DNA of 64,000 bases, taken from assembly GCA_041662625.1 (NCBI GenBank), contig JBAZSB010000002.1, forward strand, positions 12,024 through 76,023, in the 5' to 3' direction. Made by a program: the position numbers and the translations under genes. The notes under the pieces are model-generated. The model was given only the letters and a program-made list of their open reading frames with translations, did no database searches and was not told where the DNA came from. Of the stretch, positions 1,248 to 55,152 are shown piece by piece. Each line of letters opens with the position of its first letter. Position 1 is the first letter of the stretch. Origin of the DNA: Patescibacteria group bacterium. Lineage in GTDB: Bacteria > Patescibacteriota > Patescibacteriia > Buchananbacterales > UBA6539.

Positions 1248-2834
1248 CTAATCAAGGCTACATTTAATCTGGCCGCTGGCAGCAATAATTTGATCAATTG
1301 TCACATACTTGGTAGTCGCTTCAATTATATTACCCGTTGCCCCTGGCCCTTTTGGTTCCAAATACATAATCGGTTCAGTCATCAGTTGCTTAGGGATCAA
1401 ACCCATTAAATATAAATCAAGTTTAGAATATTTGCGCAAATTAGTGTTGGCCATTTTGGTCAGGCCGTTAGTAAAAGTCCCGTCATTATTATCAAGCCAG
1501 CCAAAACCGCCAAGCGGTGAAATAAAACCAGCATAGTTACTCCAGTGAGAATAGTCATCATTGCGCAGCAAAGCTTGGCTTTTTTGTCCGGTTTCATCAG
1601 TAAATTCAATGTAGGCTGCCCAGTTGTGTAAAATTTCGTGCATAATAACATTTAAAGCTTCGTCTAAACCATCTTGAGTTTCGGGATGATACTTATTGAT
1701 ATTACCCATCATAATTATCCCTTTGAGTTTGCCAGTTGAGCCATAAACTTCGGAGCGGTCAGCGATCGCTTTGTTTAAACCTTCAACTCGATTGGTCACT
1801 GTAATAAAATGGGCAATCTCATTGGTGTTTTCTGTAGGGATTTTGAAATTAGTGAAGACGAAAATAAAATCAAAAATATCAGGATTATTATCATAAAAAG
1901 TATTGATCACTTCATTTTTGACTTCTATCGTGCCATCATTTCTTTGCTGAATCAAATAGCCGTCATCGATAACAACGGAAGTGGGATAATTAAAACTGAT
2001 TTCCGCCAGTCCATCAGTAACCCAGGTAAAGCGGCCAGAAATAGCGTCTTTAATCGTTTGGAGCGTTTCAATTTCCGGGCCGTTATATTTTTCTGAGGCC
2101 AAAAAAATAACAGCAGCTTTTAATTTTTTGTTTTCACAATCCCGCTTATCAGTAATTGGCTCGGCCACCGGATTAAAAACATTTTTATTCAATTCAGTGA
2201 TTGGCCGGGTCCGGATGGAAAAATCACGGCTGCGGCTGAGGGCAAAAGACAAATCAAAACGGTTGGCCAAAACCGCCCCAACTGATTCAAAGGGCTGAAG
2301 GATCCCGTTATTTCTATAGTAATATTTTTTGGAAACTGAATCTTGATACAAAATACTGTCTGGTGTTTGATAATCGTGAATTAAAGGTTCGCCGATTTGA
2401 TAATTTTCAAAAAAAACATCGGGGATATCCACGACCCGCTTGGGCCAAGCCTGACCATAAATTGCTTCGGCAATATATTCATCTTGAATTTCGCGTAAAA
2501 CCCCGCCCTGCTCCACGGCATAAACTTGCGGCGCAGTCCGGACTTTGACTAAATAAGTCCCGGGTCGAATTGTAATATTTTTTCCCAAAGGATAATTATA
2601 CAAAAAATCATTACTGACGGTGACAATTCTGGAAAAATCTGATCCATACCAACTTTTGTAAGTAGTCTCGTTAGGAAAAGGATGACGCAGGCCTTGGCTA
2701 TCCAAATAATACACCGTACCAAAATCTTTTGATTTGACCAGTTCCAAAGCCGCGGCTGCGGGTGGTACAAACAAAAAATTGCCTAAAATTGTTAGGCTGA
2801 AAAAGATAAGAATTGCTCCGGCTTTAATTTTCAT
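1248..2834 (-). CDS. Secreted protein with an HExxH zinc-metallopeptidase-like motif
   Basis: 528 aa with an N-terminal signal peptide (MKIKAGAILIFFSLTILGNFLFVPPAAAA) and the motif VIMHEILHNW...IEFTDETG (HExxH with a downstream Glu, gluzincin-like). No family assigned. Confidence 0.45.
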   Translation of the reverse strand: MKIKAGAILIFFSLTILGNFLFVPPAAAALELVKSKDFGTVYYLDSQGLRHPFPNETTYKSWYGSDFSRIVTVSNDFLYNYPLGKNITIRPGTYLVKVRTAPQVYAVEQGGVLREIQDEYIAEAIYGQAWPKRVVDIPDVFFENYQIGEPLIHDYQTPDSILYQDSVSKKYYYRNNGILQPFESVGAVLANRFDLSFALSRSRDFSIRTRPITELNKNVFNPVAEPITDKRDCENKKLKAAVIFLASEKYNGPEIETLQTIKDAISGRFTWVTDGLAEISFNYPTSVVIDDGYLIQQRNDGTIEVKNEVINTFYDNNPDIFDFIFVFTNFKIPTENTNEIAHFITVTNRVEGLNKAIADRSEVYGSTGKLKGIIMMGNINKYHPETQDGLDEALNVIMHEILHNWAAYIEFTDETGQKSQALLRNDDYSHWSNYAGFISPLGGFGWLDNNDGTFTNGLTKMANTNLRKYSKLDLYLMGLIPKQLMTEPIMYLEPKGPGATGNIIEATTKYVTIDQIIAASGQIKCSLD

Positions 2835-2938
2835 TAATCTATTATATCAAATAAACCCAAAAAGAAAAACCCAGGGCAACAGGGTGCACTGGGCTGCCAA
2901 GAGACTTGGCAAAACTTGGTTAGGACGTGGGGCGAAAG

Positions 2939-14231: not shown

Positions 14232-14262
14232 GTAGAAAAGGGAGCTTTTACAGAAAGCTCCT
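14232..14262 (-). terminator. Rho-independent terminator for the lipoprotein gene
   Basis: On the minus strand: GGAGCTTTCTGTAAAAGCTCC followed by CTTTTCT. Confidence 0.55.
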
Positions 14263-14340
14263 TAAAAAAATCAACATAGAACTTAATCTCTTTAAGGAGA
14301 TCTCTGGCGCTATGTTGATTATGGTCTTAGAATTTTAATT

Positions 14341-15030
14341 TTACTTCGTCGATAAAAACTTAAAACTGGATAAAATTTCGTAATAAGTTGGCAAAAACCT
14401 ACTATTTGAATCCAAATGCTCTGCTAATACAAAAACTATTTTATCATTATTCATTAAACAAAGATTTTTTTTGATAAATCTTTTATCGTTATCCATAATA
14501 TAATTAATTGAAAAAACCTTTTCACCATTAATATCCTCAAATCCTTTATCTAAAATGTTCAAATTATTATATTTATCATTCCAAATTGCATCAGAATATA
14601 ATATTAAATCTGTATCACACCATTGCTTATTGTTTTGGCCGGCATGACCAAGATCATTATCATCAGCTAAAAGAAAATGAAATTCCATATAAATTTCATC
14701 TTCCGGGACAAATACACTATTGCCGCTAGGTTCATAACGAGAAGCGAGTTGAATAATTGATCCCCCAGCATATAATTCCCAACGAGGGGGATACTTAAAC
14801 TCAAACCCATATTCCTCATTCCAATAAGTTTTCCAGTTACTCGTGTCTATTGCTTTAGTAGTTGTGGCAGTGTTGGTATTTACATTTTGATCTATCGGCT
14901 GATTCGTATTTTGATTTACATTCTGGTTCTGATTAACTACCGGATTCGGCTTTTTCAGGCACGCCGAAACAGCCAGGCTTAAGCCAGCTAAAAGGGCAAT
15001 AATTGCGAGTTTTTGGGTTAGTTTTTTCAT
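14341..15030 (-). CDS. Putative lipoprotein with an Asn/Gln-rich low-complexity region
   Basis: Signal peptide with lipobox-like LAVSAC, then NQNQNVNQNTNQPIDQNVNTN, then a globular domain. Confidence 0.45.
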   Translation of the reverse strand: MKKLTQKLAIIALLAGLSLAVSACLKKPNPVVNQNQNVNQNTNQPIDQNVNTNTATTTKAIDTSNWKTYWNEEYGFEFKYPPRWELYAGGSIIQLASRYEPSGNSVFVPEDEIYMEFHFLLADDNDLGHAGQNNKQWCDTDLILYSDAIWNDKYNNLNILDKGFEDINGEKVFSINYIMDNDKRFIKKNLCLMNNDKIVFVLAEHLDSNSRFLPTYYEILSSFKFLSTK

Positions 15031-15131
15031 ACTTTTTTGGTAAAAAATAAAGCGCTTGGGGCGCTATATTGAAACTCTTTGATTCTATTCTCATTTTATC
15101 ACTCCTAAAAACCGTGTCAATAGCAGTTATT

Positions 15132-18264: not shown

Positions 18265-18418
18265 AAAAAAATAGCGCCAAAACGCTATGTTTAATCAACA
18301 CTTTCACTAACTTTGAAGTGGGTCCTAGGCTCAACCCCGCACCTTTATCTAAAAAACTATTATCAGGGCCCCAGGCTCAACATAGCGCGAAAAGCTCTAA
18401 GACCCTGATAATAATCCT

Positions 18419-18655
18419 TTAAAGAGCCGGCCGAAATAGGCGGCATTCTATCGTATTACCATTGGGTAGTTTGACCGTTACCCGCGATGGATAGCGACAA
18501 CCTAAAATCGCTTTGGCCAAAGGCGACAAAAAGGATATTTTGCCGGATTTTGGATCACCAGTTGGTAAATCAACGATTTCCAACTCTTTGATTTTGCCAT
18601 TTAAAACGACTAAGACTTTGTCCCCAATTGTAATTTTTTTAGACTTTTTGAACAT
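18419..18655 (-). CDS. Stand-alone GreA/GreB C-terminal (FKBP-like) domain protein
   Basis: 78 aa; KISFLSPLAKAILGCRYPSRVTVKLPNGNTIECRLFR matches the GreA C-terminal signature (KIS..SPlgkALlG...GD.v.v..P.G...y.I). Confidence 0.55.
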   Translation of the reverse strand: MFKKSKKITIGDKVLVVLNGKIKELEIVDLPTGDPKSGKISFLSPLAKAILGCRYPSRVTVKLPNGNTIECRLFRPAL

Positions 18656-18679
18656 AGCACGAAAAGCTTCTTATTAGTT

Positions 18680-18742
18680 TGTCATACTGAATTTATTTCA
18701 TCATCTCTACTAACTAGATTCTGAAACAAGTTCAGAATGACA
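18680..18742. repeat. REP/MITE-like nested inverted-repeat element (TGTCAYYCTGAAYTTRTTTCA family), copy 1
   Basis: TGTCATACTGAATTTATTTCA ...spacer... TGAAACAAGTTCAGAATGACA. The two arms are mutual reverse complements and each arm is internally palindromic. Confidence 0.7.
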
Positions 18743-18958
18743 ATGTAAGGGTTATCCCCAGCTTTTGCCGACGGCGGAAAAAACCGACGGCTCAAACTTA
18801 ATTTTTTCAAAAAAATTCACCGCAACTTGGATTCGGTGAACATTTTTTCAAAGTTCTTATTTACTTTTTGGTTTTTGCGACGGCGCTAGAGTATGCGACG
18901 GCTTTATTCTTATTAATAATCTTAGCATATTGAATTGCGATGTCAATAGTTTAATTGT

Positions 18959-27062: not shown

Positions 27063-27068
27063 ACAAAT

Positions 27069-27130
27069 AGAAATCAGAAATTAGAAATCAGAAGAATAAT
27101 TCTGATCTCTGATCTCTGATTTCTGATCTC
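27069..27130. repeat. Long imperfect inverted repeat built of tandem AGAAATCAGA units
   Basis: agaaatcagaaattagaaatcagaagaat | aattctgatctctgatctctgatttctgatctc, lying between two minus-strand genes. Confidence 0.7.
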
Positions 27131-27134
27131 TGGA

Positions 27135-27416
27135 TTATCCCTTAAGATAAACCAAATCGCCTTCTTTGACTGACTGGGCCACTTTTAAACCAACAGCGTC
27201 ACCAGATTTAGCGACACTCACCTGTTCATGTTCGACTTGCATTGAATCAACCGGCTGCTCAAAATCACCACCATGAGTCGCGATGATAATGGTATCGCCG
27301 ACTTTAAGTTGGCCGGCTAATTCCAAGACTCCGACCCCGATTTTGTTAAAGTAGTGGGTGATTTTGCCAATCTGCTTACCTTTGGGTAATTCAATTTTTT
27401 GTGCATCGTCTGCCAT
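27135..27416 (-). CDS. Small beta-barrel protein resembling translation-factor domain 2 (EF-Tu D2-like)
   Basis: 93 aa; GKITHYFNKIGVGVLELAGQLKVGDTIII...GDAVGLKV...EGDLVYL is the pattern of the EF-Tu domain-2 barrel. Confidence 0.4.
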   Translation of the reverse strand: MADDAQKIELPKGKQIGKITHYFNKIGVGVLELAGQLKVGDTIIIATHGGDFEQPVDSMQVEHEQVSVAKSGDAVGLKVAQSVKEGDLVYLKG

Positions 27417-27461
27417 ATACTAAAATTCTAGCTTTTAAGCCAAAATAAGTCAATGGAGTCA

Positions 27462-27514
27462 AAAAAAGAGACCAGCTGACAGAGTACCTCCTTTCTTCTG
27501 TCAAACTGGTCACA
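27462..27514 (-). terminator. Rho-independent terminator ending the GC-rich purine operon
   Basis: On the minus strand: GACCAGTTTGACAG...CTGTCAGCTGGTC followed by TCTTTTTTT. Confidence 0.6.
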
Positions 27515-27540
27515 AGTAGCATTCAGGGCATCCCTCCGGA

Positions 27541-28842
27541 TTAGCCCATGTAGTTGTCGAGTTCTTCCCGACGCATCTGATCGAAGGCATACACTGCCGG
27601 ATTGGTCTGCCCCAGAATCTGCATCGCCGCTCCGATCGCGTTGCCTTCGGGCCAAGTCGTCAGATTCGGCGTCTGCGATGGCAGGTGTACGCTTGACCAA
27701 AGATCATCCGGAAATTGCTCGAGAGTCGCTGGGACCGAAATCACTGGCCAAGGACTGTGAGCCGCGACGATCGGACCCAGACCATTGGACCGGCCGGCCT
27801 TGACCACGATGACGCCACCTTGCGGATAGTCATAGAACAGCCGTTCCAGACGCTGCAGCCCCTCAACCGGACTCTTGTGGCCGGAAGCCACGATCCGTTC
27901 AACGGTGACTCCAGGCAACTGGGGAACTTTTGGTGCTTCATCCTTGTCGGACCCAAGCCAGACAACCAGCGCCTGTCTCGGGAGCACCAAGCGTTCGGCC
28001 ATCTGGGCGACGTAACGGTAGTTCTCTTCGACTTGGCCAAGGACAGCAGCGCCACCATCGCGGAACACCTGCTTATCGAGCGGTTTGCCATTTTCCCAAA
28101 GACGCCAACTGTCGTTGTCCACGACATCGGAAACTCGGAGTTCGCTGTCGGCTTCGATCTTGATGTCAAGCCATGTGAGGCCAAAGTTCGCCCAGGCCCG
28201 CTCAAGGATCAAAGACACCCGGCGAACCAATTGATCAAGCTTGGCCATATCCGCCAGATCGGTGATGACCCCACTAGCAGGAATCTTGGCAAACGGGCTA
28301 ACCCGATGTCGACTCTCACCCTCGCCCTCTTCATGCCAGATCGGCTTCTTGGGCAAGGCAAGATCCCAGGTATCCTTGAAGGGATCAAGGATCAACGGAT
28401 CGTCGCAGGGTAGTGATAGGCCTTTCCAATCTCGACCAGTCGTCTTGAGGAAGAACTCAACCAACAACCGGTGAAAACGGTACGGCTTGGTTGGATCAGC
28501 CGTTCGAAGCTGGGGATTGCGCATCAGGAAACTGCCAACTCCCAGCCGTCGGGCGACAATCTCCAGCAGCAACATCAGCGACCGCAGCGCGACAAACTCC
28601 GTTTCGGAAATCTGCTCCACGTAAGCCACCGGCACGTCGCAAGTCCGAAGAAGTTCGAAAACGCGGCAAGTGGTTATGGTAGCACATTGGGCTTTGGACC
28701 CAAACTTCTGGGTAAAACTCGGGTCATCATGGGCAGTGATGTCCGAACCATTCCTGACGATCACCAGATCGTCTCGGCCTTCTACTGCGAAGATACCCTT
28801 GGTTTTGCCCTTGGCTATCTGCTTACCTAGTGTATACTCCAT
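27541..28842 (-). CDS. purC-purE: Bifunctional SAICAR synthetase (PurC) - N5-CAIR mutase/AIR carboxylase (PurE) fusion, PAICS-like
   Basis: The N-terminal half has PurC blocks (GKTKGIF, DDLVIVRNGSDITAHDD, WLDIKIE). The C-terminal half has PurE blocks (VVWLGSDKDE, IVASGHKSP similar to SAHRTP, AGRSNGLGPIVAAHSPWPVISVP). GC ~60%. Confidence 0.75.
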   Translation of the reverse strand: MEYTLGKQIAKGKTKGIFAVEGRDDLVIVRNGSDITAHDDPSFTQKFGSKAQCATITTCRVFELLRTCDVPVAYVEQISETEFVALRSLMLLLEIVARRLGVGSFLMRNPQLRTADPTKPYRFHRLLVEFFLKTTGRDWKGLSLPCDDPLILDPFKDTWDLALPKKPIWHEEGEGESRHRVSPFAKIPASGVITDLADMAKLDQLVRRVSLILERAWANFGLTWLDIKIEADSELRVSDVVDNDSWRLWENGKPLDKQVFRDGGAAVLGQVEENYRYVAQMAERLVLPRQALVVWLGSDKDEAPKVPQLPGVTVERIVASGHKSPVEGLQRLERLFYDYPQGGVIVVKAGRSNGLGPIVAAHSPWPVISVPATLEQFPDDLWSSVHLPSQTPNLTTWPEGNAIGAAMQILGQTNPAVYAFDQMRREELDNYMG

Positions 28843-28863
28843 GGCATTCCTTTCTCCGACTTT

Positions 28864-29397
28864 TCAGCCGATCTGTTCCTGGTCTTCCGAATCTTCCGGT
28901 CGACCTTCCGATCTCTGACCACAACGGTCACAACCGTCACACTGGTGACCCACGGCAAACCGTTTCAACTCATCGAGCATCTCCAGCACTCCCGCTGCGG
29001 GTTGACCGGATTTCTCGAGTACGGCATCAGCGACCTTGATCGAACATTTGACGCGTAGCGCCACGGCAATGGCGTCGCTGGGCCGCGAATCAACCTTGAC
29101 GACCCCGCCTGCGGTTTTCAACTCGATATAGCCCAGGAAAATCCCGTTACCAGTGAGTTGGTTGATGCCAACTTCCAAAACCTCAGCATCCAAGCCAGCC
29201 AAGATGTTCACGATTAAGTCGTGGGTCATCGGCCTTATAGGCACTTGACCAGCCAAGGCCATACCGATGGCCACAGCTTCGGCTGGACCAATCATGACTG
29301 GTAAGATCAGAGCCGCCGCTTCACTGTGTAACAACACTGTTGGTCGACCTTGGCTATCCTGGACTACAGCCAACGCATGGAGTTCTTGTCTATCCAT
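28864..29397 (-). CDS. Bifunctional-nuclease (BFN/DUF151) family protein with a Cys-rich acidic C-terminal tail
   Basis: The PSDAIAVALR motif and domain length match BFN; the C-terminus carries CDGCDRCGQ. Confidence 0.55.
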   Translation of the reverse strand: MDRQELHALAVVQDSQGRPTVLLHSEAAALILPVMIGPAEAVAIGMALAGQVPIRPMTHDLIVNILAGLDAEVLEVGINQLTGNGIFLGYIELKTAGGVVKVDSRPSDAIAVALRVKCSIKVADAVLEKSGQPAAGVLEMLDELKRFAVGHQCDGCDRCGQRSEGRPEDSEDQEQIG

Positions 29398-29476
29398 CGC
29401 ATTCTCTCCTTATGTGGAGTAAGGGTGGGCCAGCCCGGCAAAGGACCGGCCCACACCAGTTTCAGGTTGGAGAACT

Positions 29477-30745
29477 CTACTCCGGCACTTTCCCGTCGGG
29501 ATAAAGGACCGAGTGGCCCTTGCCCTGCGAGATCAGCGACCGGTACGTTTCGAGTGCCGTTTGAACGGCCGGATCAGTCAGGTCCAGTGTCTGGCGTTTC
29601 TCGGCGGCCATATAGGCGGCCTGACAGAGCCTGGTGATTTCCAAGCCGTATTCCCAGTTCAACAGTCCGTCATGGCCTTCACGGAAAGCATCACGGGCAT
29701 CGACCTGCTCATCAACGTAACCGTAAAGGTCGGGTTCGTTGGGCTGAACAGCCAGAAGGCCACGCGAAGCCGTCGACTTCTCCAAGGCCCCCTCGGCATC
29801 GGTCACGGCTTCGGCCGCGGCATCGCCGATGAAGACCTCAAGCGACGAACGCAAGGAGTTGACCTCCAAAGCATAGCCCGGGCCCATTCCTTCCATCGAG
29901 AGTCGGAGGCCCTGCTTGTCGTACATCCAAGAAGTGGCAAACTGAGCCACAACACGCTGCCGGGTCTCCGGATTCTCAAAGGTGACCAGACCGGTGGCGA
30001 AGTCTTCGGCCGGAACCAACGCGTAGTCAACGCCCATCCTCTTCAGGAGTTGGGCTCGATACTTGGGCTGGCCCCACTTCAGAAGCAGGGTATCGGCCCC
30101 AATACTAACCGGCCTGAGGAATCTCAGATCCTTGCCGACCGGTGTCAAAAGACGCCAAAGCACCGCGATGGTGTGGCAAGCCATGTCCGAAAGGACACCG
30201 CCACCTTGCCGGGTTGCATCCCAGAACCAACCCTCGTGGGGTCCAGAATGTTCTTCGCCGCCACGAGCCAAAACCAACGGCCCCATCTTTCCTTGGACGC
30301 GAGCCAGACCTTTCAGCCCTGCTTTGATGGCTTTCATGTGGATCTGGTTCTCGAAGTACGAGGTCGGGCAGCCGAGAGTCTTGGCCAGCTCAACCATACG
30401 GCGAGCCTCGGTAATGGTTCGGCCCAACGGCTTTTCGCAGATCAGCCCTTTGGGTTTCTTACCCAGTCTCGTCGCCGCATCGACGACCTGTTCCATCAAT
30501 TCAACGCGGAACGGATTCGGGGCGAAATTGGCAATCACGTCGCAATGCTCGACAAGATCGGCGACGCTTTTGTATACTACGCAATCAATTTCGCCGGTAG
30601 CGGTGGCCTTAGCGGCCAGTTGTTCCGCACCCTTCAGGGCGTGGACACCGCCGAATTCCAAACCAGGTACCAACTGGTTGGCGGCCTGCTGGAAATTGGC
30701 AACAAATCCAGCACCCATCGATCCTAGTCTGAGGATTTCCTTCAT
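29477..30745 (-). CDS. Gfo/Idh/MocA-family NAD(P)-dependent oxidoreductase
   Basis: N-terminal Rossmann fold, the EKP motif (LICEKPLGRTITEARRMVELAK) and length 422 aa; RBS AAAGGAGAG. Confidence 0.75.
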   Translation of the reverse strand: MKEILRLGSMGAGFVANFQQAANQLVPGLEFGGVHALKGAEQLAAKATATGEIDCVVYKSVADLVEHCDVIANFAPNPFRVELMEQVVDAATRLGKKPKGLICEKPLGRTITEARRMVELAKTLGCPTSYFENQIHMKAIKAGLKGLARVQGKMGPLVLARGGEEHSGPHEGWFWDATRQGGGVLSDMACHTIAVLWRLLTPVGKDLRFLRPVSIGADTLLLKWGQPKYRAQLLKRMGVDYALVPAEDFATGLVTFENPETRQRVVAQFATSWMYDKQGLRLSMEGMGPGYALEVNSLRSSLEVFIGDAAAEAVTDAEGALEKSTASRGLLAVQPNEPDLYGYVDEQVDARDAFREGHDGLLNWEYGLEITRLCQAAYMAAEKRQTLDLTDPAVQTALETYRSLISQGKGHSVLYPDGKVPE

Positions 30746-30873
30746 CAGTCTCTCCTTTCAATCAAACACTGTCTCCAATCTCTCTCCCGCCCTGAAACAG
30801 ATCAGGCCGGAACACTTCTTTTTGTTTCTTTGCCGTTTCTCCTTCCTTATCTTTTGTAACTTCCCTCGCTTGG

Positions 30874-30946
30874 TTGTGAAAAAACAAGTCTTTCCCTCCC
30901 TTTGGAAAAGACTATTAAAACTGGGTTTAATTTAACAAAAAAAAGC
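30874..30946. promoter_or_regulatory. Conserved ~73-bp upstream element, copy 1 (second copy at 34510..34590), containing the palindrome AGTCTTTCC-N9-GGAAAAGACT
   Basis: ttgtgaaaaaacaagtctttccctccctttggaaaagactattaaaactgggtttaatttaacaaaaaaaagc compared with ttgtcaaaaaaacaaagtcttcccctcacgttggaaaagacttttccctacaaaactggctttaatttaacaaaaaaaagc. Both lie 5' of minus-strand operons. Confidence 0.6.
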
Positions 30947-30982
30947 TATAAAGTCAATCACATGATGCTAATCTACAATTTA

Positions 30983-31014
30983 TGCGAATGATAATAATAT
31001 TCGCAACATTCGCA
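30983..31014. promoter_or_regulatory. Perfect inverted repeat TGCGAAT-N9-ATTCGCA plus a third ATTCGCA half-site (candidate operator)
   Basis: tgcgaat gataataat attcgca ac attcgca; AT-rich and lies ~240 bp upstream of the oxidoreductase start. Confidence 0.5.
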
Positions 31015-31226
31015 TACTACTCGCATCCATTATCATTATATTAAAAAAAGGACCAGACAACCTTCTTCATCTCGCCGAATCCGCTTTCAAGCGGAGAAGG
31101 CGGGACTTGGTCGTTATGGTCCCTTGGATCTCAATAGTGTACAAAACCCTCCTTAGTCTCGCCGTAGTCCGAAGGACGTAGGCGGATTAGTCTCGCCGTA
31201 GTCCGAAGGACAAAGGCGGACTTGGG

Positions 31227-32924
31227 TTAGTGGCGAAAGCCCCGGCACTTCTTGTCTGGCATCAGGTACAGCGTCATACCGGCCGCAGTCAGTTCCTCCT
31301 GAACTTTTCCGTCGTTGACCGAACCGGACGAAGCGAATAAGACGGTGATTCCTGCTTCGTGCAACACCAGACCAGCATCACCGAAAGGCAAGAAGCTATC
31401 CGAATAGGCAGCGGCTTCCACCAACCCTACTTTTTCCTCGTCCTGTCTGTTGGCTTCACCGCGCTCATAGCCTCGAACTGCCAGCTCTGCCGCACCGACG
31501 CGATCCATCCGACCGCATCCGTTGCCTTCCAGTTCGTAGACGATCATATCTCTGACTTGCCTCTGCCTCACAATGGTGATGGTATTGCTCTTGGCCTGAG
31601 AGCCGATTGCCCAACCAGCCTTGAGACAGCCTTCCAATTCTGGTCGGCGAGGTCCGATGATTTGCAGATCCGGATCGTCAAACGACGGCACAAACTGGCT
31701 CGGCGGATAATGAGTGTAGTCCCCGCCACCGACATGGGTAAAGATCGGGGTATTATCCATAGGTAGATTGCCAGCCAGCGCCGGATTCAACATCACACGG
31801 CACTTGCCTGTCTTTTTGCGCGCCAGTATTTCGATCGCATTTTCGTCAGCGCTGGGCGCAAACACAGCATCCAGAATCCGGCGCTGTCCTTTCGGCATAT
31901 GGTAATACAGCAGCATGTCAGCGATCTCGGCAGTGATATGGAAGTTGAACAGCAGTACGCCGCCATGAATCGCCAATTCATCGCCTTCGATCATGCTTCT
32001 GACCGCCTCGACGATGGCATCTCGTCCTTTGCCTTTGACAATCCCGGCACCGCAGATATTGACGTGCTTGTCCGCCAAGGCAAAACTGTGTGTGTCTGCC
32101 GGAAATACTGCCGCCAGCCGTGTCATGGTTTCGGTCAGCGTATGGAGATCATCCAAGTTGTTGCAGCTTGGACTCATGCCTTCAACTCCGACGAAGCGGC
32201 TCGGCGCCAACTCCCAATCACCACCACCGGTATACAAGGCGGCTGGCACTTGGTGAGGATTGGGTCCATAAGCGAGCGACAAAACCCGTTCGCCGCTGAT
32301 GCCGGCGAACTGTCCGTCGCTGATGAAATCTGCTGCTGTCAGGTAATGTCTGGCAATCATTGCCAGCGCTTTGCCGGCGAGGCGCTTTCGGGTCTCGGGT
32401 AAGACATCGCCATCGTTTTTCACCATTTCTTCCCAGACCTTGGGAATGTCAGATTCATCGACAACGACGATGCGCAAACGCTTTGAACCCATCGCTGCTT
32501 GCGCCGGTCCACCGACGTCAACCTTTTCCAGCACCTCCTCAAACGATAGCGCTCCACTGTCGATCGCGGCCTGGAGATCGTAGAATCCGCCGACGAATAT
32601 CTCGCAAAGTGGCCCGCCGAGTTCACGCAGCTCATCAAGGTGTTTGGGTTTGGCTGGTTTGGCACACAGTGCACCAAGTACCTTGGGATGCAGCGATACT
32701 ACGCCGTGGTCGAACATCGGCGGCGAGCCAATGGTCGCATAGTTGTTACAGGTAATACCACTCCCTTCGAGGAAACAGGTTGTGCCGTCCGACCCATAGA
32801 GGGTCAATCCCAATGATTCATGCAGATAGCGAGCAAATGCTGCAATCCCTTCTGTCTTGTCAGCAACGCTTAAAAACGCTGCCCTGACAATTCCTGAATC
32901 TGCCGTACTCACTTTATCACTCAT
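31227..32924 (-). CDS. purH: Bifunctional AICAR transformylase / IMP cyclohydrolase
   Basis: N-terminal MGS-like block FLSVADKT...GSDGT...LHPKV and the C-terminus ...SDSFLPFGDAG...VLFASSGSVNDG...RGFRH, which matches the PurH C-terminus (ASDAFFPFRD...QPGGSIRD...RHFRH). Confidence 0.8.
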   Translation of the reverse strand: MSDKVSTADSGIVRAAFLSVADKTEGIAAFARYLHESLGLTLYGSDGTTCFLEGSGITCNNYATIGSPPMFDHGVVSLHPKVLGALCAKPAKPKHLDELRELGGPLCEIFVGGFYDLQAAIDSGALSFEEVLEKVDVGGPAQAAMGSKRLRIVVVDESDIPKVWEEMVKNDGDVLPETRKRLAGKALAMIARHYLTAADFISDGQFAGISGERVLSLAYGPNPHQVPAALYTGGGDWELAPSRFVGVEGMSPSCNNLDDLHTLTETMTRLAAVFPADTHSFALADKHVNICGAGIVKGKGRDAIVEAVRSMIEGDELAIHGGVLLFNFHITAEIADMLLYYHMPKGQRRILDAVFAPSADENAIEILARKKTGKCRVMLNPALAGNLPMDNTPIFTHVGGGDYTHYPPSQFVPSFDDPDLQIIGPRRPELEGCLKAGWAIGSQAKSNTITIVRQRQVRDMIVYELEGNGCGRMDRVGAAELAVRGYERGEANRQDEEKVGLVEAAAYSDSFLPFGDAGLVLHEAGITVLFASSGSVNDGKVQEELTAAGMTLYLMPDKKCRGFRH

Positions 32925-32954
32925 ACTCGTCTCTCTCCTTTTCTCTCTCTGTTC

Positions 32955-34481
32955 CTAGGCCACAATGGCCAAGGGTTTCATTGCCTTCAATCCATTCTTC
33001 ATTTCTCTTCGCGCATCCTTGATCGCATCACCAACATAGGCTGCCGGATGCTTCAGTAGGTAAATCTCGCGTGGAGTTAATCCTTTCCAGACGCGCCGGA
33101 ACTTAGGATCAGCCCCGTCAGACTCCATATATTGCTCGGCTGCAACGCAAAGATTGGGCGCACCAGCTTTGACCCGGGCCACTAGTTCCTTCTTGACGAA
33201 GGTGTGAGCGCCTTCAAAGCCTTGCCGCTGCAATGCGTTGTGGAGTAATTCCGCTAACGATGCTGGTCCGAATATCTTGACCCAGTGCAGGCAGCGTTCT
33301 TCGTTGAACGCCAGAGCGCCCATCTGCCGATGCACGCTGTACAACTCCTGGGTAAAGTACTCAAGGGCTTCGATGAAAGTGCGCATCACCGAGGACCACC
33401 GCAAATCGCGTTGGAAGTTGCTCCCGCGCGTCAGCCACGGTCTTAAGGCACAACTCAACACGATTGCATCGGCGCCAATGGCGTTCTCAGCCCGAATGGG
33501 GTTGGCTTCCTTGGCTGCTCCCGCCGAAGAGGTCGAGGTAATACCGACATCCTTTGAAGGAATGACCTCGCCGAGTTCAGGCATGTGCAAGATCCGGAGA
33601 TCATCACACAGACTCATCATCGGTCCGCTGATCGCGACGAGCTCGCTGTAAAAACGAACCGTGTGATGAATAGGCGGAACCTGACTAGCACCTCTGGCTA
33701 CCGGCAAGTCAAGAATATTCATCAGCGTCCGTTCGGCTTTTTTGGGAATACCGACGGCGCGCTGCGATGCGGCGGTACCGACGAAACCACAGAACTTGCC
33801 CGGCACCGCCAAGGCAGCCCGTTGCAGTTCCACAGCGCAGTCAATGTATTGCTGATGGCCACAAGCCAGATAAAATCCGACTGTACCTGGTATGGCCGGC
33901 TGCAAGTGGGTGCGAAACATCTCCCGCATCTTCAGGTTTTCACCAATCTTGGCTCGCCAAACTTCATCGAGTGCCATCATCTTTGGCCAAATAATCAGAC
34001 TGAACACAACTCGAAGCTGCAAGGCATATGCCGTCGAAATCGTGTCATAGGAAGTTGCCGTATAGTGCAACCACTTCCAAAGTCCTTTGGGAAGATAACG
34101 GCGCATCAATGCCAGAAGCGCCAGGATATCGTGGCCGATTCCTTTGGTCTTCTTCTTTCTGTCTCCGTATTCGAGGCGATCCTGTTTTGTTGTGGTGACA
34201 TTCTTGAGGACGTAGAGCAAACGCTCTTTCGTCAGCAATTTGGCGTCCTTTTCCGGCATGATTCCGATAATGGCTAACGCCACCATCCAGAACCATTCCA
34301 CCAGGACCAACCAAAGTGCCCATTGGTCATAGCCGAGGTACGGAACCAGTTCCGGTTGCTGTTCTGCATATCTGTGATCCATATGCATCACCAGCACCCG
34401 CCGTCGATCCTTGGCTAAAACCGCGAAATACGCAATCGCGGCCGCTAACATCTCTCGGGCTTTATCAATAGTCATACGCAC
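32955..34481 (-). CDS. Adenylosuccinate-lyase-like protein (fumarate-lyase superfamily), divergent with a hydrophobic N-terminal extension
   Basis: A fumarate-lyase signature-like block TSTSSAGAAKEANPIRAEN (consensus GSSxMPxKxNP), length 508 aa and operon context with purH/purC-E; RBS AAGGAGG. Confidence 0.5.
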   Translation of the reverse strand: MRMTIDKAREMLAAAIAYFAVLAKDRRRVLVMHMDHRYAEQQPELVPYLGYDQWALWLVLVEWFWMVALAIIGIMPEKDAKLLTKERLLYVLKNVTTTKQDRLEYGDRKKKTKGIGHDILALLALMRRYLPKGLWKWLHYTATSYDTISTAYALQLRVVFSLIIWPKMMALDEVWRAKIGENLKMREMFRTHLQPAIPGTVGFYLACGHQQYIDCAVELQRAALAVPGKFCGFVGTAASQRAVGIPKKAERTLMNILDLPVARGASQVPPIHHTVRFYSELVAISGPMMSLCDDLRILHMPELGEVIPSKDVGITSTSSAGAAKEANPIRAENAIGADAIVLSCALRPWLTRGSNFQRDLRWSSVMRTFIEALEYFTQELYSVHRQMGALAFNEERCLHWVKIFGPASLAELLHNALQRQGFEGAHTFVKKELVARVKAGAPNLCVAAEQYMESDGADPKFRRVWKGLTPREIYLLKHPAAYVGDAIKDARREMKNGLKAMKPLAIVA

Positions 34482-34509
34482 ACCTCCTTAGTTCCAACTC
34501 CAACCCTAA

Positions 34510-34590
34510 TTGTCAAAAAAACAAAGTCTTCCCCTCACGTTGGAAAAGACTTTTCCCTACAAAACTGGCTTTAATTTAACAAAAAAAAGC
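34510..34590. promoter_or_regulatory. Conserved ~73-bp upstream element, copy 2
   Basis: See 30874..30946; lies ~30-110 bp upstream of the purB-like start. Confidence 0.6.
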
Positions 34591-34608
34591 CTGACCGTCA
34601 AATGAAGA

Positions 34609-39187: not shown

Positions 39188-39688
39188 CTAATTACCTTCT
39201 CGTTGTTTTGTTAAACTTAATGCTCAAAATCAACTTGGCTTAAACGCTAAAATTATTTTGAAAAATTAAGTGTAAACAAAACTATTAATTATTAATGGCT
39301 ATATACTAGCATACTTTTAAAATTTTGTCAATAATCCACAAATCTCCTAGATGCTAAAGGGGGAATTGACTTATTTTTTAACCTATGATAAGCTATTTAA
39401 GATCCTGAATAATCCATAAGTCGGATTCAGGCATTAGGCTTAACAATTAAACCTTTCCCCGTGTTACCCTTCTAACTTAGATCGGGTGACCATTACCTTA
39501 TCCAATTCTGCGATAAGGAAAGGCGTTTTTCAAACAGTTAACAGTTAACTGCCAAGTGTTAATTGTTATTAACATAGCGCTGGGAAAATACCGAGCGTTT
39601 TTAATAAATTAAAATAACAAGGATTTAGCAAAATTAGGAGTTGAGATCCAAAACCTACTTCCTACTACCTACTTCCTACTACCTAACT

Positions 39689-40153
39689 ATGACTAACCAC
39701 TACGAACTGCTTTATTTGGTAGGCGCTAATTACACCGATGAAGAGTTGATGCCAATTAAAGAAAAAGTAAAAGAATTACTCAAAAAATTTGGCGGCGAGA
39801 TTACGCTGGAAGACAGTTTGGGCAAAAAGAAACTGGCTTATCCCATCAAAGGTAACCACCAAGGTTATTACTTGCTGATGGAATTCAATATAGACGGGGC
39901 TAAGCTGAAAGAGTTAAACCAAAACCTTAAACTCACTAGTGAAGTTTTAAGGCATGTTGTTGTCAGCAGAAAAATTGAGACTCCCAGCTTACTGAAAACG
40001 ACTGCCGCTAAATTAAAGACTGCTGAACAAAAAGAGAGAGAAGTTAAAATCACACCCGAGGAAGAACGTAAAACCGAACCAGAAAAAGGTAAAATTAAAT
40101 TGGAAGACCTAGACCAGCGGCTTGATGAGATTTTGGAAGGTGATATAATGTAG
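39689..40153 (+). CDS. rpsF: 30S ribosomal protein S6
   Basis: Start at MTNHYELLYLV...; S6 fold pattern and the rpsF-ssb-rpsR operon context. Confidence 0.85.
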   Translation: MTNHYELLYLVGANYTDEELMPIKEKVKELLKKFGGEITLEDSLGKKKLAYPIKGNHQGYYLLMEFNIDGAKLKELNQNLKLTSEVLRHVVVSRKIETPSLLKTTAAKLKTAEQKEREVKITPEEERKTEPEKGKIKLEDLDQRLDEILEGDIM

Positions 40154-40237
40154 AAACATCAAATAAATAACGGAGCCAACAACCATATATTTCTATACAA
40201 TCAATATAGCGCGCCTAAATCTTAAACCTAAAAAAAT

Positions 40238-43677: not shown

Positions 43678-44094
43678 CTACTTGGTTTTTTCTAATATTG
43701 CAGCCAGTATCCTCAGTAATTCCATATTTTCCTGTAATATCGGTTTGATTTCTTCTTGAAGTTGAGTGTTAGCTTCGATCATTAAATTCAGCCAATAAAT
43801 AGTTTCTTTGGCTTCTTTGCGGCTGATCCTTAATCGAAATTGAAAATCTTTTTTTGTTTCTGTCTCATTAGCTTCACGATAATTAGCGCCAATTGATGTG
43901 CCTGACCTTATAGCCTGGCGGCCTAATACAAAATTGATATCATTTTTAGGTAAGACCTTAGCTAGTCTAATAAGTCTTTTGCTAAATTCCAAGGTCCTAT
44001 CTTCTAAGTCATACCGTTTTGAATTTTGAACATTAGTGCTTGGAATTTGTTTGGAATTTGAGATTTTGGATTTGTAATTTTCAACATAGCCCAT
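43678..44094 (-). CDS. Four-helix-bundle protein of the '23S rRNA intervening-sequence protein' family (TIGR02436-like)
   Basis: ...SIGANYREA...DFQFRLRISRKEAKETIYWLNLM matches the family core (GANI.EA....dF..fl.iA.GS..E...wl). The N-terminal ~20 aa (ENYKSKISNSKQIPSTN) are encoded by the repeat element, so the true start is uncertain. Confidence 0.6.
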   Translation of the reverse strand: MGYVENYKSKISNSKQIPSTNVQNSKRYDLEDRTLEFSKRLIRLAKVLPKNDINFVLGRQAIRSGTSIGANYREANETETKKDFQFRLRISRKEAKETIYWLNLMIEANTQLQEEIKPILQENMELLRILAAILEKTK

Positions 44095-44195
44095 ACTACT
44101 TTATTTAATAGTTAGTTTGGCACTATGTTGATTATATTTTAATAAGTAAATCGAACCCCTAAAAACCTTCCCCTAAGAACCTAAAAACCTACAAC

Positions 44196-47204: not shown

Positions 47205-47384
47205 ATTTAGTTAACCAATCCTCAAATAATAGTAAACACTTGATGATATATATTTTAGCATATTTTGTCGGATAAATCATCAGTTGTTGATTTCGTGACT
47301 TTTCCTTATAACAAAGCACCCACCTGAGGTGGGCGCTATGTTGATTCTATCTAATAGATTATATTAACTCTCTAACTTTATCGT

Positions 47385-54788: not shown

Positions 54789-55152
54789 AGTTAATTTAGA
54801 TCTCCGGAAAAAACAACAAAAATCTCTCCCAACCCCTAAGCGGGAAGCGAGTTGATTTTTTTGTTTTTAGTTTTGAGAAAAAAAGAAGCCCACTATGTTT
54901 GTTTTTAAAATCAATGCGTTAGTTCGAATAGCGGGAATTTTTTAAATCGCCATTTAATGGAAATTAACTTGTCAATATTATCATAATTCCAAGGCCTTGT
55001 CAAATGTTTTCTCCTTTTATAATACGATTAATACCAATTTGGCTAAATTTAGCTAAAAAAATTCAAAAAAATAAAGACTTATCCACAATTTTTCCCACTA
55101 GCCACCTAAGGGTTAATTTTTGGGTAACCAAAAATGATGAACAATAAGTTGA

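What the first reader, a model, noticed from the sequence alone, without database searches (positions are those of the whole stretch)
14306..14320. Recurring 14-nt motif (A)WYMAACATAGYGC(C) upstream of at least eight genes on their coding strand
GCGCTATGTTGATT-like sequences occur at 14306-14320 (upstream of the giant CHAP gene), 15060-15074 (lipoprotein), 18283-18299 and 18376-18389 (flanking the NYN gene start), 39568-39583 (rpsF), 44119-44133 (four-helix gene), 47331-47346 (ftsK) and 54889-54902 (rpoB). In each case except 18376-18389 the motif reads ...AACATAGCGC... in the sense orientation of the downstream gene, 17-130 nt before the start codon. It is often abutting a short hairpin. This fits a promoter-associated element or the binding site of a global regulator in a genome with few recognisable sigma70 boxes. 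It is not an obvious known motif.
Basis: seen in the sequence. Interest (0 to 1): 0.5.

Follow-up and report, generated by a model that had tools for sequence, protein, structure and literature searches.

The report
Conserved motif fused to terminator hairpins
A 12-15 base sequence, (AA)TCAACATAGCGC(C), recurs between genes of this uncultivated Patescibacteria lineage, always on the coding strand and almost always forming the foot of an RNA hairpin, so it looks like a new lineage-specific signal controlling transcription read-through or translation rather than a promoter.

Summary
AACATAGCGC (≤1 mismatch) occurs 15 times against 3.6 expected. All strong copies lie in the 10% of the window that is intergenic, and one was missed (ssb, 40199-40213). 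The rpoB site is not a member.

The window is a Patescibacteria genome near Candidatus Buchananbacteria. The 12-mer TCAACATAGCGC is kept at orthologous places in at least 10 related species: after rpoC, upstream of rpsF, between rpsF and ssb, and before four-helix "23S IVP" genes. Flanking DNA is unalignable. More distant Patescibacteria lack it.

In 17 of 21 sites AGCGC is the 5' arm of a hairpin whose upper stem differs between species. The hairpin is either an intrinsic terminator (followed by TTTTGTT) or a stem that buries the start codon.

Recognisable sigma-70 promoters exist. They lie upstream of the motif (so it is transcribed) or downstream of the hairpin (ftsK and others). Motif-bearing terminators occur only before co-directional genes.

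Best reading (~0.4): a transcribed, strand-specific recognition site fused to conditional terminator or translation-blocking hairpins, read by an unknown factor. Promoter, RNase-processing and ops-like readings remain possible. Nothing matches in Rfam or in the literature searched.

The parts
47332..47346 (-). Motif AATCAACATAGCGCC, 38 nt after the rpoC stop codon
   Evidence: 26.7 bits. Orthologous copies follow rpoC in L083-L089.
47315..47337 (-). Hairpin AGCGCCCACC-TCA-GGTGGGTGCT. Its 5' arm is the 3' end of the motif. The T-rich tail TTGTTATAA follows at 47306-47314. This is the rpoBC intrinsic terminator.
   Evidence: 10 pairs, 7 GC; -18.2 kcal/mol. The stems differ in all 8 species.
47243..47271 (-). 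Promoter-like site for ftsK (CCGACA-17-TATCAT, overlapping TGCTAAAAT), downstream of the motif-hairpin
   Evidence: TGnTAAAATATA is conserved in W, L086, L087 and L088.
44119..44133 (-). Motif AATCAACATAGTGCC, 24 nt before the ATG of the 23S_rRNA_IVP (four-helix) gene 43678-44094
   Evidence: The same arrangement precedes IVP genes in L084, L085, L087, L250 and metagenome loci.
44081..44094 (-). ATGGGCTATGTTGA: the start codon plus the first codons of the IVP gene. It is complementary to the motif, so the predicted stem buries the AUG.
   Evidence: -8.6 kcal/mol. In other IVP copies GCGCCA pairs with uAUGGCGC.
40199..40213 (+). Motif AATCAATATAGCGCG between rpsF and ssb, 24 nt before the ssb ATG. 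It has no hairpin.
   Evidence: 22 bits. Conserved in L083, L084, L085 and L089 at 26-28 nt from the ATG.
40122..40149 (+). Promoter-like site TTGATG-16-TATAAT (with TG) inside the 3' end of rpsF, upstream of the ssb motif
   Evidence: also present in L083.
39567..39581 (+). Motif variant TATTAACATAGCGCT in the rpsF leader (divergent intergenic region)
   Evidence: 17.9 bits. Orthologous copies are in L083, L085, L088 and L089.
39576..39606 (+). Hairpin AGCGCTGGG-AAAATA-CCGAGCGT plus a T-run, forming a terminator-like attenuator about 85 nt before the rpsF ATG (39689)
   Evidence: -11.4 kcal/mol.
18281..18295 (-). Motif variant ATTAAACATAGCGTT in front of the NYN gene
   Evidence: 13.7 bits. 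The relative L252 has AATCAATATGGCGCG plus hairpin plus TTTTT plus ATG at the same place.
18265..18288 (-). Hairpin ATAGCG-TTTTGG-CGCTAT plus TTTTTT, which runs directly into the NYN ATG (18264)
   Evidence: 7 pairs.
18376..18390 (+). The only inverted copy (CTCAACATAGCGCGA). On the transcribed minus strand it sits in the loop of the terminator hairpin after the Gre-like ORF.
   Evidence: Not conserved in relative L252.
15060..15074 (-). Motif variant TTTCAATATAGCGCC in the 5' leader of the lipoprotein-like gene 14341-15030
   Evidence: 17.4 bits.
15041..15065 (-). Hairpin AGCGC-CCCAA-GCGCT plus TTATTTTTTA, 21 nt before the ATG
   Evidence: The C-to-T change in the motif (AATA) is matched by TATT in the tail.
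15093..15120 (-). Strong sigma-70-type promoter TTGACA-16-TAAAAT (11/12, with TG). Its -10 ends 20 nt before TCAAT, which places the motif at about +13 of the transcript.
   Evidence: L250 and L251 show the same spacing (19 nt).
14306..14320 (-). Motif AATCAACATAGCGCC, 20 nt after the lipoprotein-like gene stop and 105 nt before the giant CHAP/CARDB ORF
   Evidence: 26.7 bits.
14241..14279 (-). CTATGTTGATT (14269-14279), a perfect complement of the motif's 5' part, then a T7 run, then a second terminator hairpin GGAGCTTT-CTGT-AAAGCTCC (14241-14261)
54889..54902 (-). It is not a member.
   Evidence: 2.6 bits. No hairpin and no orthologous conservation.

Best explanation
The element is a transcribed, strand-specific cis-signal. 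It combines a conserved 12-mer, UCAACAUAGCGC (often preceded by AA), with an RNA hairpin fused to it.

The last five bases of the 12-mer (AGCGC) form the 5' strand of the conserved lower stem of that hairpin. The upper stem is free to vary. The hairpin takes one of two forms:
- an intrinsic terminator followed by a U-tract (after rpoC, and in the leaders of rpsF, the lipoprotein-like gene, NYN and RNaseH-like/Pif1);
- a stem that pairs with the start-codon region (four-helix IVP genes).

It sits at junctions where the next gene runs in the same direction.

I propose it is a conditional terminator and translation-block module. A lineage-specific trans-acting factor (protein or RNA, unidentified) recognises the 12-mer. 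Because the site overlaps the 5' arm, binding decides whether the hairpin forms, and so sets read-through into the downstream gene and its translation.

Shown:
- the motif is real;
- it is under sequence-specific purifying selection;
- its orientation follows the gene;
- it is physically fused to covarying hairpins;
- many of those hairpins have a terminator-like character;
- predicted promoters lie upstream of the motif or downstream of the hairpin.

Inferred:
- that it acts at the RNA level;
- that a factor binds it;
- that termination or translation is regulated rather than constitutive.
For: (1) Selection on sequence. TCAACATAG is exact in 6 of 8 species after the rpoC stop (GAAACATAG in L085, TCAACATAAG in L089), although the flanks and hairpin tops are unalignable. 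The information content is 1.1-2.2 bits per position over the 12 positions and near zero upstream. It is also kept at rpsF, ssb, IVP, NYN and RNaseH-like/Pif1 sites in L083-L089 and L249-L252.

(2) Fusion to a hairpin. In 17 of 21 unbiased sites a stem starts at A7/G8 of the motif. The mean MFE is -11.1 against -6.3 kcal/mol for intergenic controls (p=3e-4). RNAalifold finds a 5-bp lower stem in 21-23 of 23 sequences. Positions 12-14 pair through CG, GC, AU and UA types.

(3) Terminator character. A GC stem plus a T-tract was called independently by the scanner at 47337-47315, 15065-15051 and 18288-18271.

(4) It is transcribed.
- 11/12 sigma-70 promoters end 19-20 nt upstream of the motif in W (lipoprotein-like gene leader), L250 and L251.
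- The ssb internal promoter lies 31-51 nt upstream.

(5) It is not the downstream promoter. Conserved promoters follow the hairpin for ftsK and for RNaseH-like/Pif1.

(6) Link to co-directional genes. Among terminator-like hairpins behind a gene, about 11-12 of 33-34 carry the motif when the next gene is co-directional, against 0-1 of 27-28 when it is convergent (Fisher p=0.0006-0.004). Two sites lie in divergent regions, where only a downstream gene is present (W rpsF, L192).

(7) IVP genes. The stem pairs GCGCCA with uAUGGCGC and buries the AUG (-10 to -16 kcal/mol).

(8) Strand and location. All 32 matrix hits are intergenic, and 28 of 31 are in sense orientation.
Against: - No trans-acting factor is identified, and no transcript data are available.
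- The ssb sites keep the full motif but have no hairpin.
- The absence from convergent terminators could be a side effect. Those terminators are bidirectional and need an A-tract on the 5' side.
- In about 60% of terminator-type sites the AACA of the motif is predicted to pair with UGUU in the U-tract. TGTT is enriched in motif tails, 6/12 against 8/48 (p=0.02). So part of the motif may be double-stranded rather than a free binding site.
- A -10-like hexamer abuts the motif at about half of the sites.
- In L250/L251 a second promoter after the terminator would partly bypass any attenuation.
- Promoters here are consensus matches, not mapped transcription start sites.
Confidence: 0.4

Rival explanations
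1. RNA processing or stability determinant. A sequence-specific endoribonuclease cuts in the single-stranded AAUCAACAUA just 5' of the hairpin. The downstream RNA then starts with a protective 5' stem-loop and a short leader, which is useful in a largely SD-less genome. The upstream RNA loses its 3' hairpin.
For: - The architecture is a single-stranded motif directly abutting a stable stem.
- The motif clusters 12-33 nt before SD-less start codons.
- It occurs only between co-directional genes, that is, within potential polycistronic transcripts.
- It is strand-specific.
- RNase E/Y sites next to hairpins are established biology (own knowledge).
Against: - Known RNases of this type have loose sequence specificity, whereas this is a 12-nt near-invariant site.
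- GCGC inside the stem is as conserved as the single-stranded part.
- The ssb sites lack any hairpin.
- The U-tracts are left unexplained.
- No candidate nuclease was tested.
Confidence: 0.18
2. Promoter or transcription-start element. A -10-like hexamer (TAnAAT, whose last T is the T of TCAAC) is followed by a conserved discriminator and initially transcribed sequence. Transcripts would start near ATAG and carry a 5' hairpin.
For: - TAcAAT, TAGAAT or TATAAT abuts the motif at ssb and many IVP sites.
- A is present at the -11-equivalent position in 13 of 24 sites and T at the last position in 23 of 24.
- The motif-to-ATG distance of 24-29 nt at ssb/IVP would be a normal short leader.
- IVP cassettes inserted at new places carry the motif with them, and no other promoter was found.
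- A divergent-region case exists, L192.
Against: - No -35 or TG extension is present.
- Half of the sites lack the essential -11 A (GGGGTC, ACTAAT, CGGAAT and others).
- The best-conserved bases lie downstream of the putative -10.
- After rpoC a start 2 nt before a -18 to -30 kcal/mol terminator would be futile, and ftsK has its own conserved promoter.
- Strong canonical promoters sit 19-20 nt upstream of the motif at three sites.
Confidence: 0.12
3. ops-like signal read on the non-template DNA strand. RNA polymerase pauses at the motif and a NusG/RfaH-type factor is loaded. That factor suppresses the terminator immediately downstream and helps ribosome loading on SD-less leaders.
For: - It is specific to the sense (non-template) strand and lies in transcribed leaders just before terminators.
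- The genome is mostly SD-less.
- One site lies before a giant ORF.
- (A/G)TAGCG at motif positions 5-10 equals positions 5-10 of E. coli ops, GGCGGTAGCGTG.
- RfaH recruits 30S subunits to leaders lacking SD and acts as an antiterminator (PMC5995543).
Against: - Only 5-6 of the 12 ops positions match.
- The pause-inducing TG at ops positions 11-12 and the C3:G8 pair are absent.
- The density, about 1 per 7-10 kb, is far above that of known ops regulons.
- Sites at the 3' end of rpoC do not fit operon-leader logic.
- No NusG paralogue was looked for or found in the sequence held.
- It does not explain why GCGC must be part of the RNA stem.
Confidence: 0.1
4. Purely structural or historical element. 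The motif is the left arm of an old imperfect palindrome (AACATAGCGC...GCGCTtTGTT) that simply lengthens terminator stems, or it is the decayed remnant of a REP/MITE-like repeat family. No trans-acting factor is involved.
For: - AACA is predicted to pair with UGUU in 15 of 26 sites.
- TGTT is enriched in motif tails.
- One compensatory change is seen: the C-to-T change in W 15061 is matched by G-to-A in the tail.
- Perfect inverted pairs occur at 14269-14320 and 44081-44133.
- REP elements also have an RTAG head next to a GC hairpin (own knowledge).
Against: - Pairing alone would allow any A-rich sequence, and distant relatives use plain A-tracts.
- The left arm is far better conserved than the right.
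- Orthologous retention across species with about 76-82% RpoC identity and saturated flanks argues against neutral relics.
- The stems are not shared between copies, unlike REPs.
- No REP-associated transposase (RAYT) flanked by motif copies was seen. The Y1_Tnp gene in L089 has none nearby.
- The ssb sites have no partner arm.
Confidence: 0.1
5. Multi-copy tiny RNAs or 3'-UTR-derived sRNAs. The motif is a single-stranded seed in front of a terminator and targets GCGCUAUGUUGA-like start regions.
For: - A promoter, about 12 nt, the motif and then a terminator would give RNAs of about 45 nt at W 15120-15041, L250 and L251.
- The complement of the motif contains AUG and occurs at some start codons (44081-44094, L110, L168, L184).
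Against: - Dozens of copies with an identical seed, embedded in mRNA leaders and 3' ends, would be unprecedented.
- Most copies have no promoter of their own.
- Few complementary targets are seen in 295 kb.
Confidence: 0.05
6. DNA uptake sequence, as in Neisseria or Pasteurellaceae, lodged in terminators.
For: - It is a short, lineage-specific, over-represented motif that is sometimes arranged as inverted pairs in terminators.
- Patescibacteria are naturally competent (PMC10633639, title and abstract only).
- PMC1852404 links terminators and uptake signals.
Against: - There are no copies in 259 kb of coding DNA, and the density is only about 1 per 7-10 kb.
- Orientation follows the gene even at sites without a hairpin.
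- It is absent from convergent terminators.
- It lies mostly outside the stem.
Confidence: 0.03

Closest known systems
Intrinsic (Rho-independent) terminators and leader attenuators
   Same: A GC-rich stem-loop followed by a T/U-tract, placed after operon ends (rpoC) or in 5' leaders (rpsF, the lipoprotein-like gene, NYN). The stems covary.
   Different: Ordinary terminators have no conserved sequence 5' of the stem beyond an A-tract. Distant Patescibacteria show exactly that. Here a near-invariant 12-mer replaces the A-tract, but only in about one third of co-directional terminators. The same 12-mer also occurs without a U-tract (IVP) or without any stem (ssb).
RAT/terminator overlap of BglG/SacY/LicT-type antitermination (and, by design logic, the T-box sequence)
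   Same: A conserved recognition sequence overlaps the 5' arm of a terminator, so binding and terminator formation are mutually exclusive. It is strand-specific and located in leaders.
   Different: RAT forms its own alternative hairpin and is bound by CAT-PRD proteins in sugar operons. Here no alternative stem is evident, the genes are housekeeping and diverse, the copy number is high, and no CAT-domain protein was seen. Rfam finds nothing.
ops element / RfaH (NusG paralogue) recruitment
   Same: A 12-nt, non-template-strand-specific leader element linked to antitermination and to translation of SD-less mRNAs. They share the hexamer (A/G)TAGCG.
   Different: Only a partial sequence match. The TG pause dinucleotide is lacking. 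The density is much higher. The motif is fused to an RNA hairpin. It also occurs at operon 3' ends.
REP elements (RAYT-associated)
   Same: A conserved RTAG 'head' directly 5' of a GC-rich palindrome. Both are intergenic, often lie after genes, and can act as terminators or stabilisers (own knowledge).
   Different: REP copies share the whole palindrome and are young and mobile. Here only the head and 5 bp of the stem are shared, sites are orthologous across genera, and no flanked RAYT gene was seen.
lambda/rrn nut sites (boxA plus boxB)
   Same: A linear conserved box next to a stem-loop of variable sequence, acting in cis on elongating polymerase.
   Different: In nut sites boxA and boxB are separated and do not overlap a terminator. 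There are few copies per genome. No sequence similarity was tested beyond AACA.
DNA uptake sequences in terminators (Neisseria DUS, Haemophilus USS)
   Same: A lineage-specific short motif that sometimes occurs as inverted pairs forming terminators.
   Different: Absent from coding DNA, of low density, oriented with the gene, and mostly outside the stem.

Membership tests
Sigma-70 promoter | A -35 hexamer (TTGACA-like) 16-18 nt upstream of a -10 hexamer, or a TG-extended -10 | tested here: not met
   No site has a 10/12 or better promoter that uses the hexamer abutting the motif as its -10. The good promoters found lie 19-51 nt upstream of the motif.
Sigma-70 promoter | A -10 hexamer with near-invariant A at position 2 and T at position 6 | tested here: inconclusive
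   T6 is present in 23 of 24 sites but A2 in only 13 of 24. TAcAAT is common at ssb/IVP sites and absent at many terminator-type sites.
Sigma-70 promoter | Primary transcript 5' ends 6-8 nt downstream of the -10 | not testable with these tools
   No transcript data are available.
Intrinsic terminator | A GC-rich stem-loop immediately followed by a U-tract | tested here: met
   Met for the terminator-type sites (47315-47337, 15051-15065, 18271-18288, 39576-39599 and all rpoC orthologues). Not met for the IVP sites (no U-tract) or the ssb sites (no stem).
Intrinsic terminator | Located at the end of a transcription unit, with transcript 3' ends in the U-tract | tested here: inconclusive
   The position after rpoC, with an independent ftsK promoter downstream, fits. 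Other copies lie inside leaders. 3' ends are not testable here.
Protein-dependent antiterminator site (RAT-like) | A conserved recognition sequence overlapping the 5' arm of the terminator | tested here: met
   AGCGC of the 12-mer forms the conserved lower stem.
Protein-dependent antiterminator site (RAT-like) | A cognate RNA-binding antiterminator protein (for example CAT-PRD) encoded in the genome and shown to bind | not tested
   Pfam scans of 30 window proteins showed no CAT, ANTAR, PyrR or TRAP domain. The rest of the genome was not available.
Known structured RNA families (Rfam 15) | A covariance-model match | tested here: not met
   No matches at gathering score in the whole window. At E<=5 around the nine window sites, no hit overlapped a motif site.
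REP / RAYT system | Many copies sharing the whole palindrome, not only the head | tested here: not met
   Upper stems differ between copies within the window and between orthologues.
REP / RAYT system | A Y1 transposase (RAYT) gene flanked by inverted REPs | tested here: not met
   None is present in the window. The one Y1_Tnp gene seen (L089 21790-22197) has no motif copy nearby. Whole genomes were not searched.
DNA uptake sequence | High density on both strands, including in coding DNA, with orientation independent of transcription | tested here: not met
   0 hits in 259 kb of coding DNA. 28 of 31 hits are in sense orientation. The density is about 1 per 7-10 kb.
ops / RfaH | The GGCGGTAGnnTG consensus with the TG pause and the C3:G8 pair | tested here: not met
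   Only (A/G)TAGCG is shared. Positions 1-4 and 11-12 differ.
ops / RfaH | A specialised NusG paralogue in the genome | not tested
   Not searched. The sequence held covers only about 6% of a genome per species.

The most novel reading that the evidence does not exclude
In this largely Shine-Dalgarno-less Patescibacteria clade, the 12-mer would be a genome-wide loading or recognition signal, present in roughly 100 copies per genome. A single lineage-specific factor, such as an ops-type NusG paralogue or a sequence-specific RNA-binding antiterminator, would use it to override terminator and start-codon hairpins at co-directional gene junctions. That would couple read-through to ribosome loading. 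It would amount to a global, post-initiation layer of gene control in organisms that have very few transcription factors.
Probability: 0.15. Interest if true: 0.8.

Novelty: new variant of a known kind. Interest (0 to 1): 0.52.

Why it matters
Almost nothing is known about how candidate-phyla-radiation bacteria control gene expression. They are mostly uncultivated, have tiny genomes and encode few regulators.

A near-invariant, strand-specific 12-mer welded to terminator and start-codon hairpins, and kept at orthologous junctions across genera, is a concrete handle. It has several uses:
- It predicts where transcription units end or are conditionally joined.
- It can be scanned for in every metagenome-assembled genome of the clade.
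- Its presence or absence can be correlated with protein families to nominate the factor that reads it.

If it proves to be a global antitermination or ribosome-loading signal, it would be a new regulatory logic for reduced genomes. If it is only a terminator flavour, it still improves annotation of this lineage.

Tried and rejected
**Searches that found nothing**
- Rfam at gathering score on the whole window and at E<=5 around the nine window sites: no hit overlapped a motif site.
- Literature search for the sequence: only unrelated primer hits.
- Viral contigs (IMG/VR) with the 15-mer: 39 hits, all look like chance matches in coding DNA, so no phage link.
- Metagenome scan with the 15-mer. 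About 18 hits are genuine (hairpin/T-run, or 12-33 nt before a start codon) and the rest are chance. It was useful for anatomy, not for counting.

**Mechanistic ideas tested and dropped**
- The motif's TCAACA as a -35 box: no -10 lies at 16-18 nt (manual check on the sequences).
- ACATAG or CATAGC as a -10: rejected on sequence.
- A leader peptide or upstream ORF ending at the TAG of the motif: at the window's rpoC site an in-frame stop lies 5 codons upstream and there is no start (sequence). Only that site was checked.
- A trans- or cis-acting antisense partner. The inverted copy at 18376-18390 sits in the loop of the Gre-like gene's terminator and could pair with the NYN motif. The relative L252 lacks it, so it is not a conserved feature.

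**Sites and families excluded**
- The rpoB-upstream site: 2.6 bits and not conserved.
- REP/RAYT and DNA uptake sequence membership: defining features not met.

**Synteny**
- Synteny downstream of the Pif1 helicase is not conserved, so the lipoprotein and CHAP sites could not be checked in relatives.
Full report
**What the window is.** RpoB and RpoC place it in the Patescibacteria, next to Candidatus Buchananbacteria. The RpoC sequence is identical to one on a 172-kb MAG contig, and the nearest other species have about 76-82% RpoC identity. Genes run mostly on the minus strand. Most genes have A/T-rich upstream regions without a Shine-Dalgarno sequence.

- The sequence at 14306-14320 is as stated.
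- AACATAGCGC with up to 1 mismatch occurs 15 times against 3.6 expected, and no shuffle reaches 15.
- The good copies are all intergenic. The rpoB site does not (2.6 bits). One site, between rpsF and ssb (40199-40213), was missed.
- A blind k-mer census of the 6.3 kb of intergenic DNA puts two families among the most intergenic-specific: TATTGACA, the sigma-70 -35 box, and this motif.
Canonical promoters are easy to see.

**Conservation.** I fetched the syntenic rpoB-rpoC-ftsK...efp-rpsR-ssb-rpsF region from seven related species (L083-L089). I also fetched three loci around Pif1-helicase homologues (L249-L251) and the greA-NYN locus of another relative (L252-L261).
- After the rpoC stop codon all eight species have (AA)TCAACATAG, exact in six and near-identical in two (GAAACATAG in L085, TCAACATAAG in L089). 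A GC-rich hairpin and a T-tract follow. The hairpin tops and all flanking DNA differ.
- The motif is likewise kept in the rpsF leader and 26-28 nt before the ssb ATG.
- It is kept 24-29 nt before the ATG of IVP genes, wherever those cassettes are inserted.
- It is kept before the NYN gene, and before the RNaseH-like/Pif1 operon of relatives.
- Information content is high for exactly 12 positions, TCAACATAGCGC, moderate for the preceding AA, and nil further upstream.
- More distant Patescibacteria, with about 50% identity in the RpoC C-terminus, have ordinary A-tract terminators after rpoC and no intergenic matrix hits in 122 kb.
- With the matrix, all 32 hits in 295 kb of clade DNA are intergenic. 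28 of 31 point the same way as the downstream gene.

**Anatomy.**
- In 17 of 21 unbiased sites a stem begins at A7/G8 of the motif. The 45 nt from ATAG onward fold far better than intergenic controls (mean -11.1 against -6.3 kcal/mol, p=3e-4).
- RNAalifold recovers a conserved 5-bp lower stem, AGCGC:GCG(C/U)U, in 21-23 of 23 sequences.
- Above that, pairs are kept through CG, GC, AU and UA types and through different stem lengths.
- Most stems are followed by a T-tract, often TTTTGTT. The independent scanner calls them terminator-like.
- In about 60% of these sites the AACA of the motif can pair with UGUU in the tail. TGTT is enriched in motif-bearing tails (p=0.02), and one compensatory change is seen.
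- At IVP genes there is no U-tract. Instead GCGCCA pairs with uAUGGCGC, or the whole motif pairs with AUGGGCUAUGUUGA, which buries the start codon.
- The ssb sites have the motif but no stem.

**Promoter or not?**
- No -35 or TG extension accompanies the hexamer that abuts the motif. The diagnostic -11 A of that hexamer is present in only 13 of 24 sites.
- Strong canonical promoters (11/12) lie upstream of the motif at a fixed distance: the -10 ends 19-20 nt before TCAAC. This is seen in the window's lipoprotein leader and in L250 and L251.
- A conserved internal promoter in the 3' end of rpsF precedes the ssb site. In these cases the motif is transcribed.
- Elsewhere a conserved promoter follows the motif-hairpin: TGnTAAAAT for ftsK, and TTGAGN-17-TATAAT for the RNaseH-like/Pif1 operon.
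- A transcription start 2 nt before a -18 to -30 kcal/mol terminator after rpoC would be pointless.
- The motif is therefore not, in general, the promoter. At ssb and IVP sites a TAcAAT hexamer is frequent, and promoter activity there cannot be excluded.

**Which gene does it serve?**
- Among terminator-like hairpins that follow a gene, about one third carry the motif when the next gene is co-directional. None, or one doubtful case, does when the next gene converges (Fisher p=0.0006-0.004).
- Two copies lie in divergent regions, where only a downstream gene exists. L249 also lies in a divergent region but follows a promoter and a possible small ORF.
- The distance to the next start codon is bimodal: a cluster at 12-33 nt and a tail from 48 to 360 nt.
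- This ties the element to read-through into, or expression of, the downstream gene rather than to termination as such.
- There is a caveat. Convergent terminators are bidirectional and need an A-tract on the 5' side.

**Most likely mechanism.** A sequence-specific recognition site overlaps the 5' arm of a terminator or of an AUG-occluding stem. This is the design of conditional terminators, as in the RAT/terminator overlap and T-box logic. Whatever binds the 12-mer decides whether the hairpin forms.
- I put this at about 0.4.
- Rivals are an RNase processing or stabiliser site (0.18), a promoter or start element (0.12), an ops-like non-template-strand loading site for a NusG paralogue (0.10), a purely structural or relic palindrome (0.10), tiny RNAs (0.05) and a DNA uptake sequence (0.03).
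- The ops idea rests on a shared (A/G)TAGCG hexamer and on RfaH's known roles in antitermination and in translating SD-less leaders (PMC5995543).
- The reader of the motif is unknown, and no transcript data were available.

**Comparison with what is known.** The hairpin-plus-U-tract part is an ordinary intrinsic terminator. The conserved 12-mer fused to it is not described.
- Rfam has nothing, and the literature search found only unrelated hits.
- REP, DNA uptake sequence and ops membership each fail on a defining feature (see the membership table).
- I therefore file it as a new variant of a known kind: a lineage-specific terminator or attenuator module with a conserved recognition box.
- Interest is moderate. 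It is a clean, testable handle on gene regulation in a poorly understood bacterial radiation, but its function is still inferred.

Noticed in passing
window 27500-35000: A GC-rich block (51-54% against about 40% elsewhere). Its genes carry strong GGAGG-type Shine-Dalgarno sequences, whereas most other genes in the window are SD-less. It is possibly a foreign island.
   Followed up: no
window 18717-18741(-), 41565-41589(+), 56868-56892(+): A second intergenic repeat: the 25-nt hairpin GTCAYYCTGAAYTTRTTTCAGRRTC, found 3 times against 0 expected. At 41565-41640 it is paired with a second hairpin (GCCGAAACAAGTTCGGC) inside ATGTCA...TGACA flanks, which looks MITE-like. Weak sub-threshold Rfam AaHKsRNA41 hits lie at two of the copies, 18674-18845 and 41518-41638.
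   Followed up: partly
window 18419-18958(-): ORF 18419-18655 encodes only a GreA/GreB C-terminal domain (78 aa). The relative L252 has a full 165-aa greA at the same place, upstream of NYN. In the window the N-terminal half is replaced by 303 nt of non-coding DNA that holds the hairpin repeat and a promoter-like site.
   Followed up: partly
window 39430-39535(+): A conserved structured leader upstream of rpsF (CTTAACAATTAAACCTTTYCC...hairpin...GATAAGGAAAGGYGTT), shared by W, L083, L087, L088 and L089. It may be an S6:S18-type autoregulatory leader. Rfam has no match.
   Followed up: no
window 27063-27134, 43545-43640, 39645-39688, 38165-38200, 55411-55499: Short low-complexity tandem repeats (for example AGAGATCAGA..., GTAATTTGAGATTTG..., CCTACTTCCTACTA...) lie immediately upstream of start codons. 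Similar repeats occur in relatives before IVP genes, for example GAGATAAAG.
   Followed up: no
window about 41660-41775(+), inside the 'intergenic' stretch 41557-41868: An unannotated conserved 37-codon ORF (MGQNSALRARIKHAKKNTRKGKELRMKTRDLRPKR). Related starts occur in L084, L085 and L088, and L087 has a 37-aa called gene at the corresponding place. It produced a false motif hit.
   Followed up: no
window 2835-2860 (upstream of 1248-2834, minus strand) and 27417-27450 (upstream of 27135-27416, minus strand): Promoter -10 boxes end 6-8 nt before the ATG (TGATATAAT-AGATTA-ATG; TTGACT-17-TAGAAT-TTTAGTAT-ATG), which suggests leaderless mRNAs.
   Followed up: no
window 43678-44094(-) and L084, L085, L087, L250: The four-helix '23S rRNA IVP' genes sit at different places in each species. 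In the window the gene lies between the HTH gene and recA, a position that is empty in L083 and L085-L089. Each copy brings its own copy of the motif, so it behaves like a mobile cassette.
   Followed up: partly
L132, L134, L151, L169, L176 (soil metagenome contigs, GC about 0.53): The 15-mer matches where AATCAACATA directly precedes a tRNA gene that begins GCGCCCGTAGCTCAG. This is an unrelated taxon and almost certainly coincidence, but the motif/stem junction falls exactly at the RNase P site.
   Followed up: no
window 14241-14279(-): The arm complementary to the motif starts a 9-codon mini-ORF (AUG UUG AUU UUU UUA AGG AGC UUU CUG UAA). Its stop codon lies in the loop of the second terminator before the giant CHAP ORF. 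This is a possible leader-peptide arrangement, seen only here.
   Followed up: no
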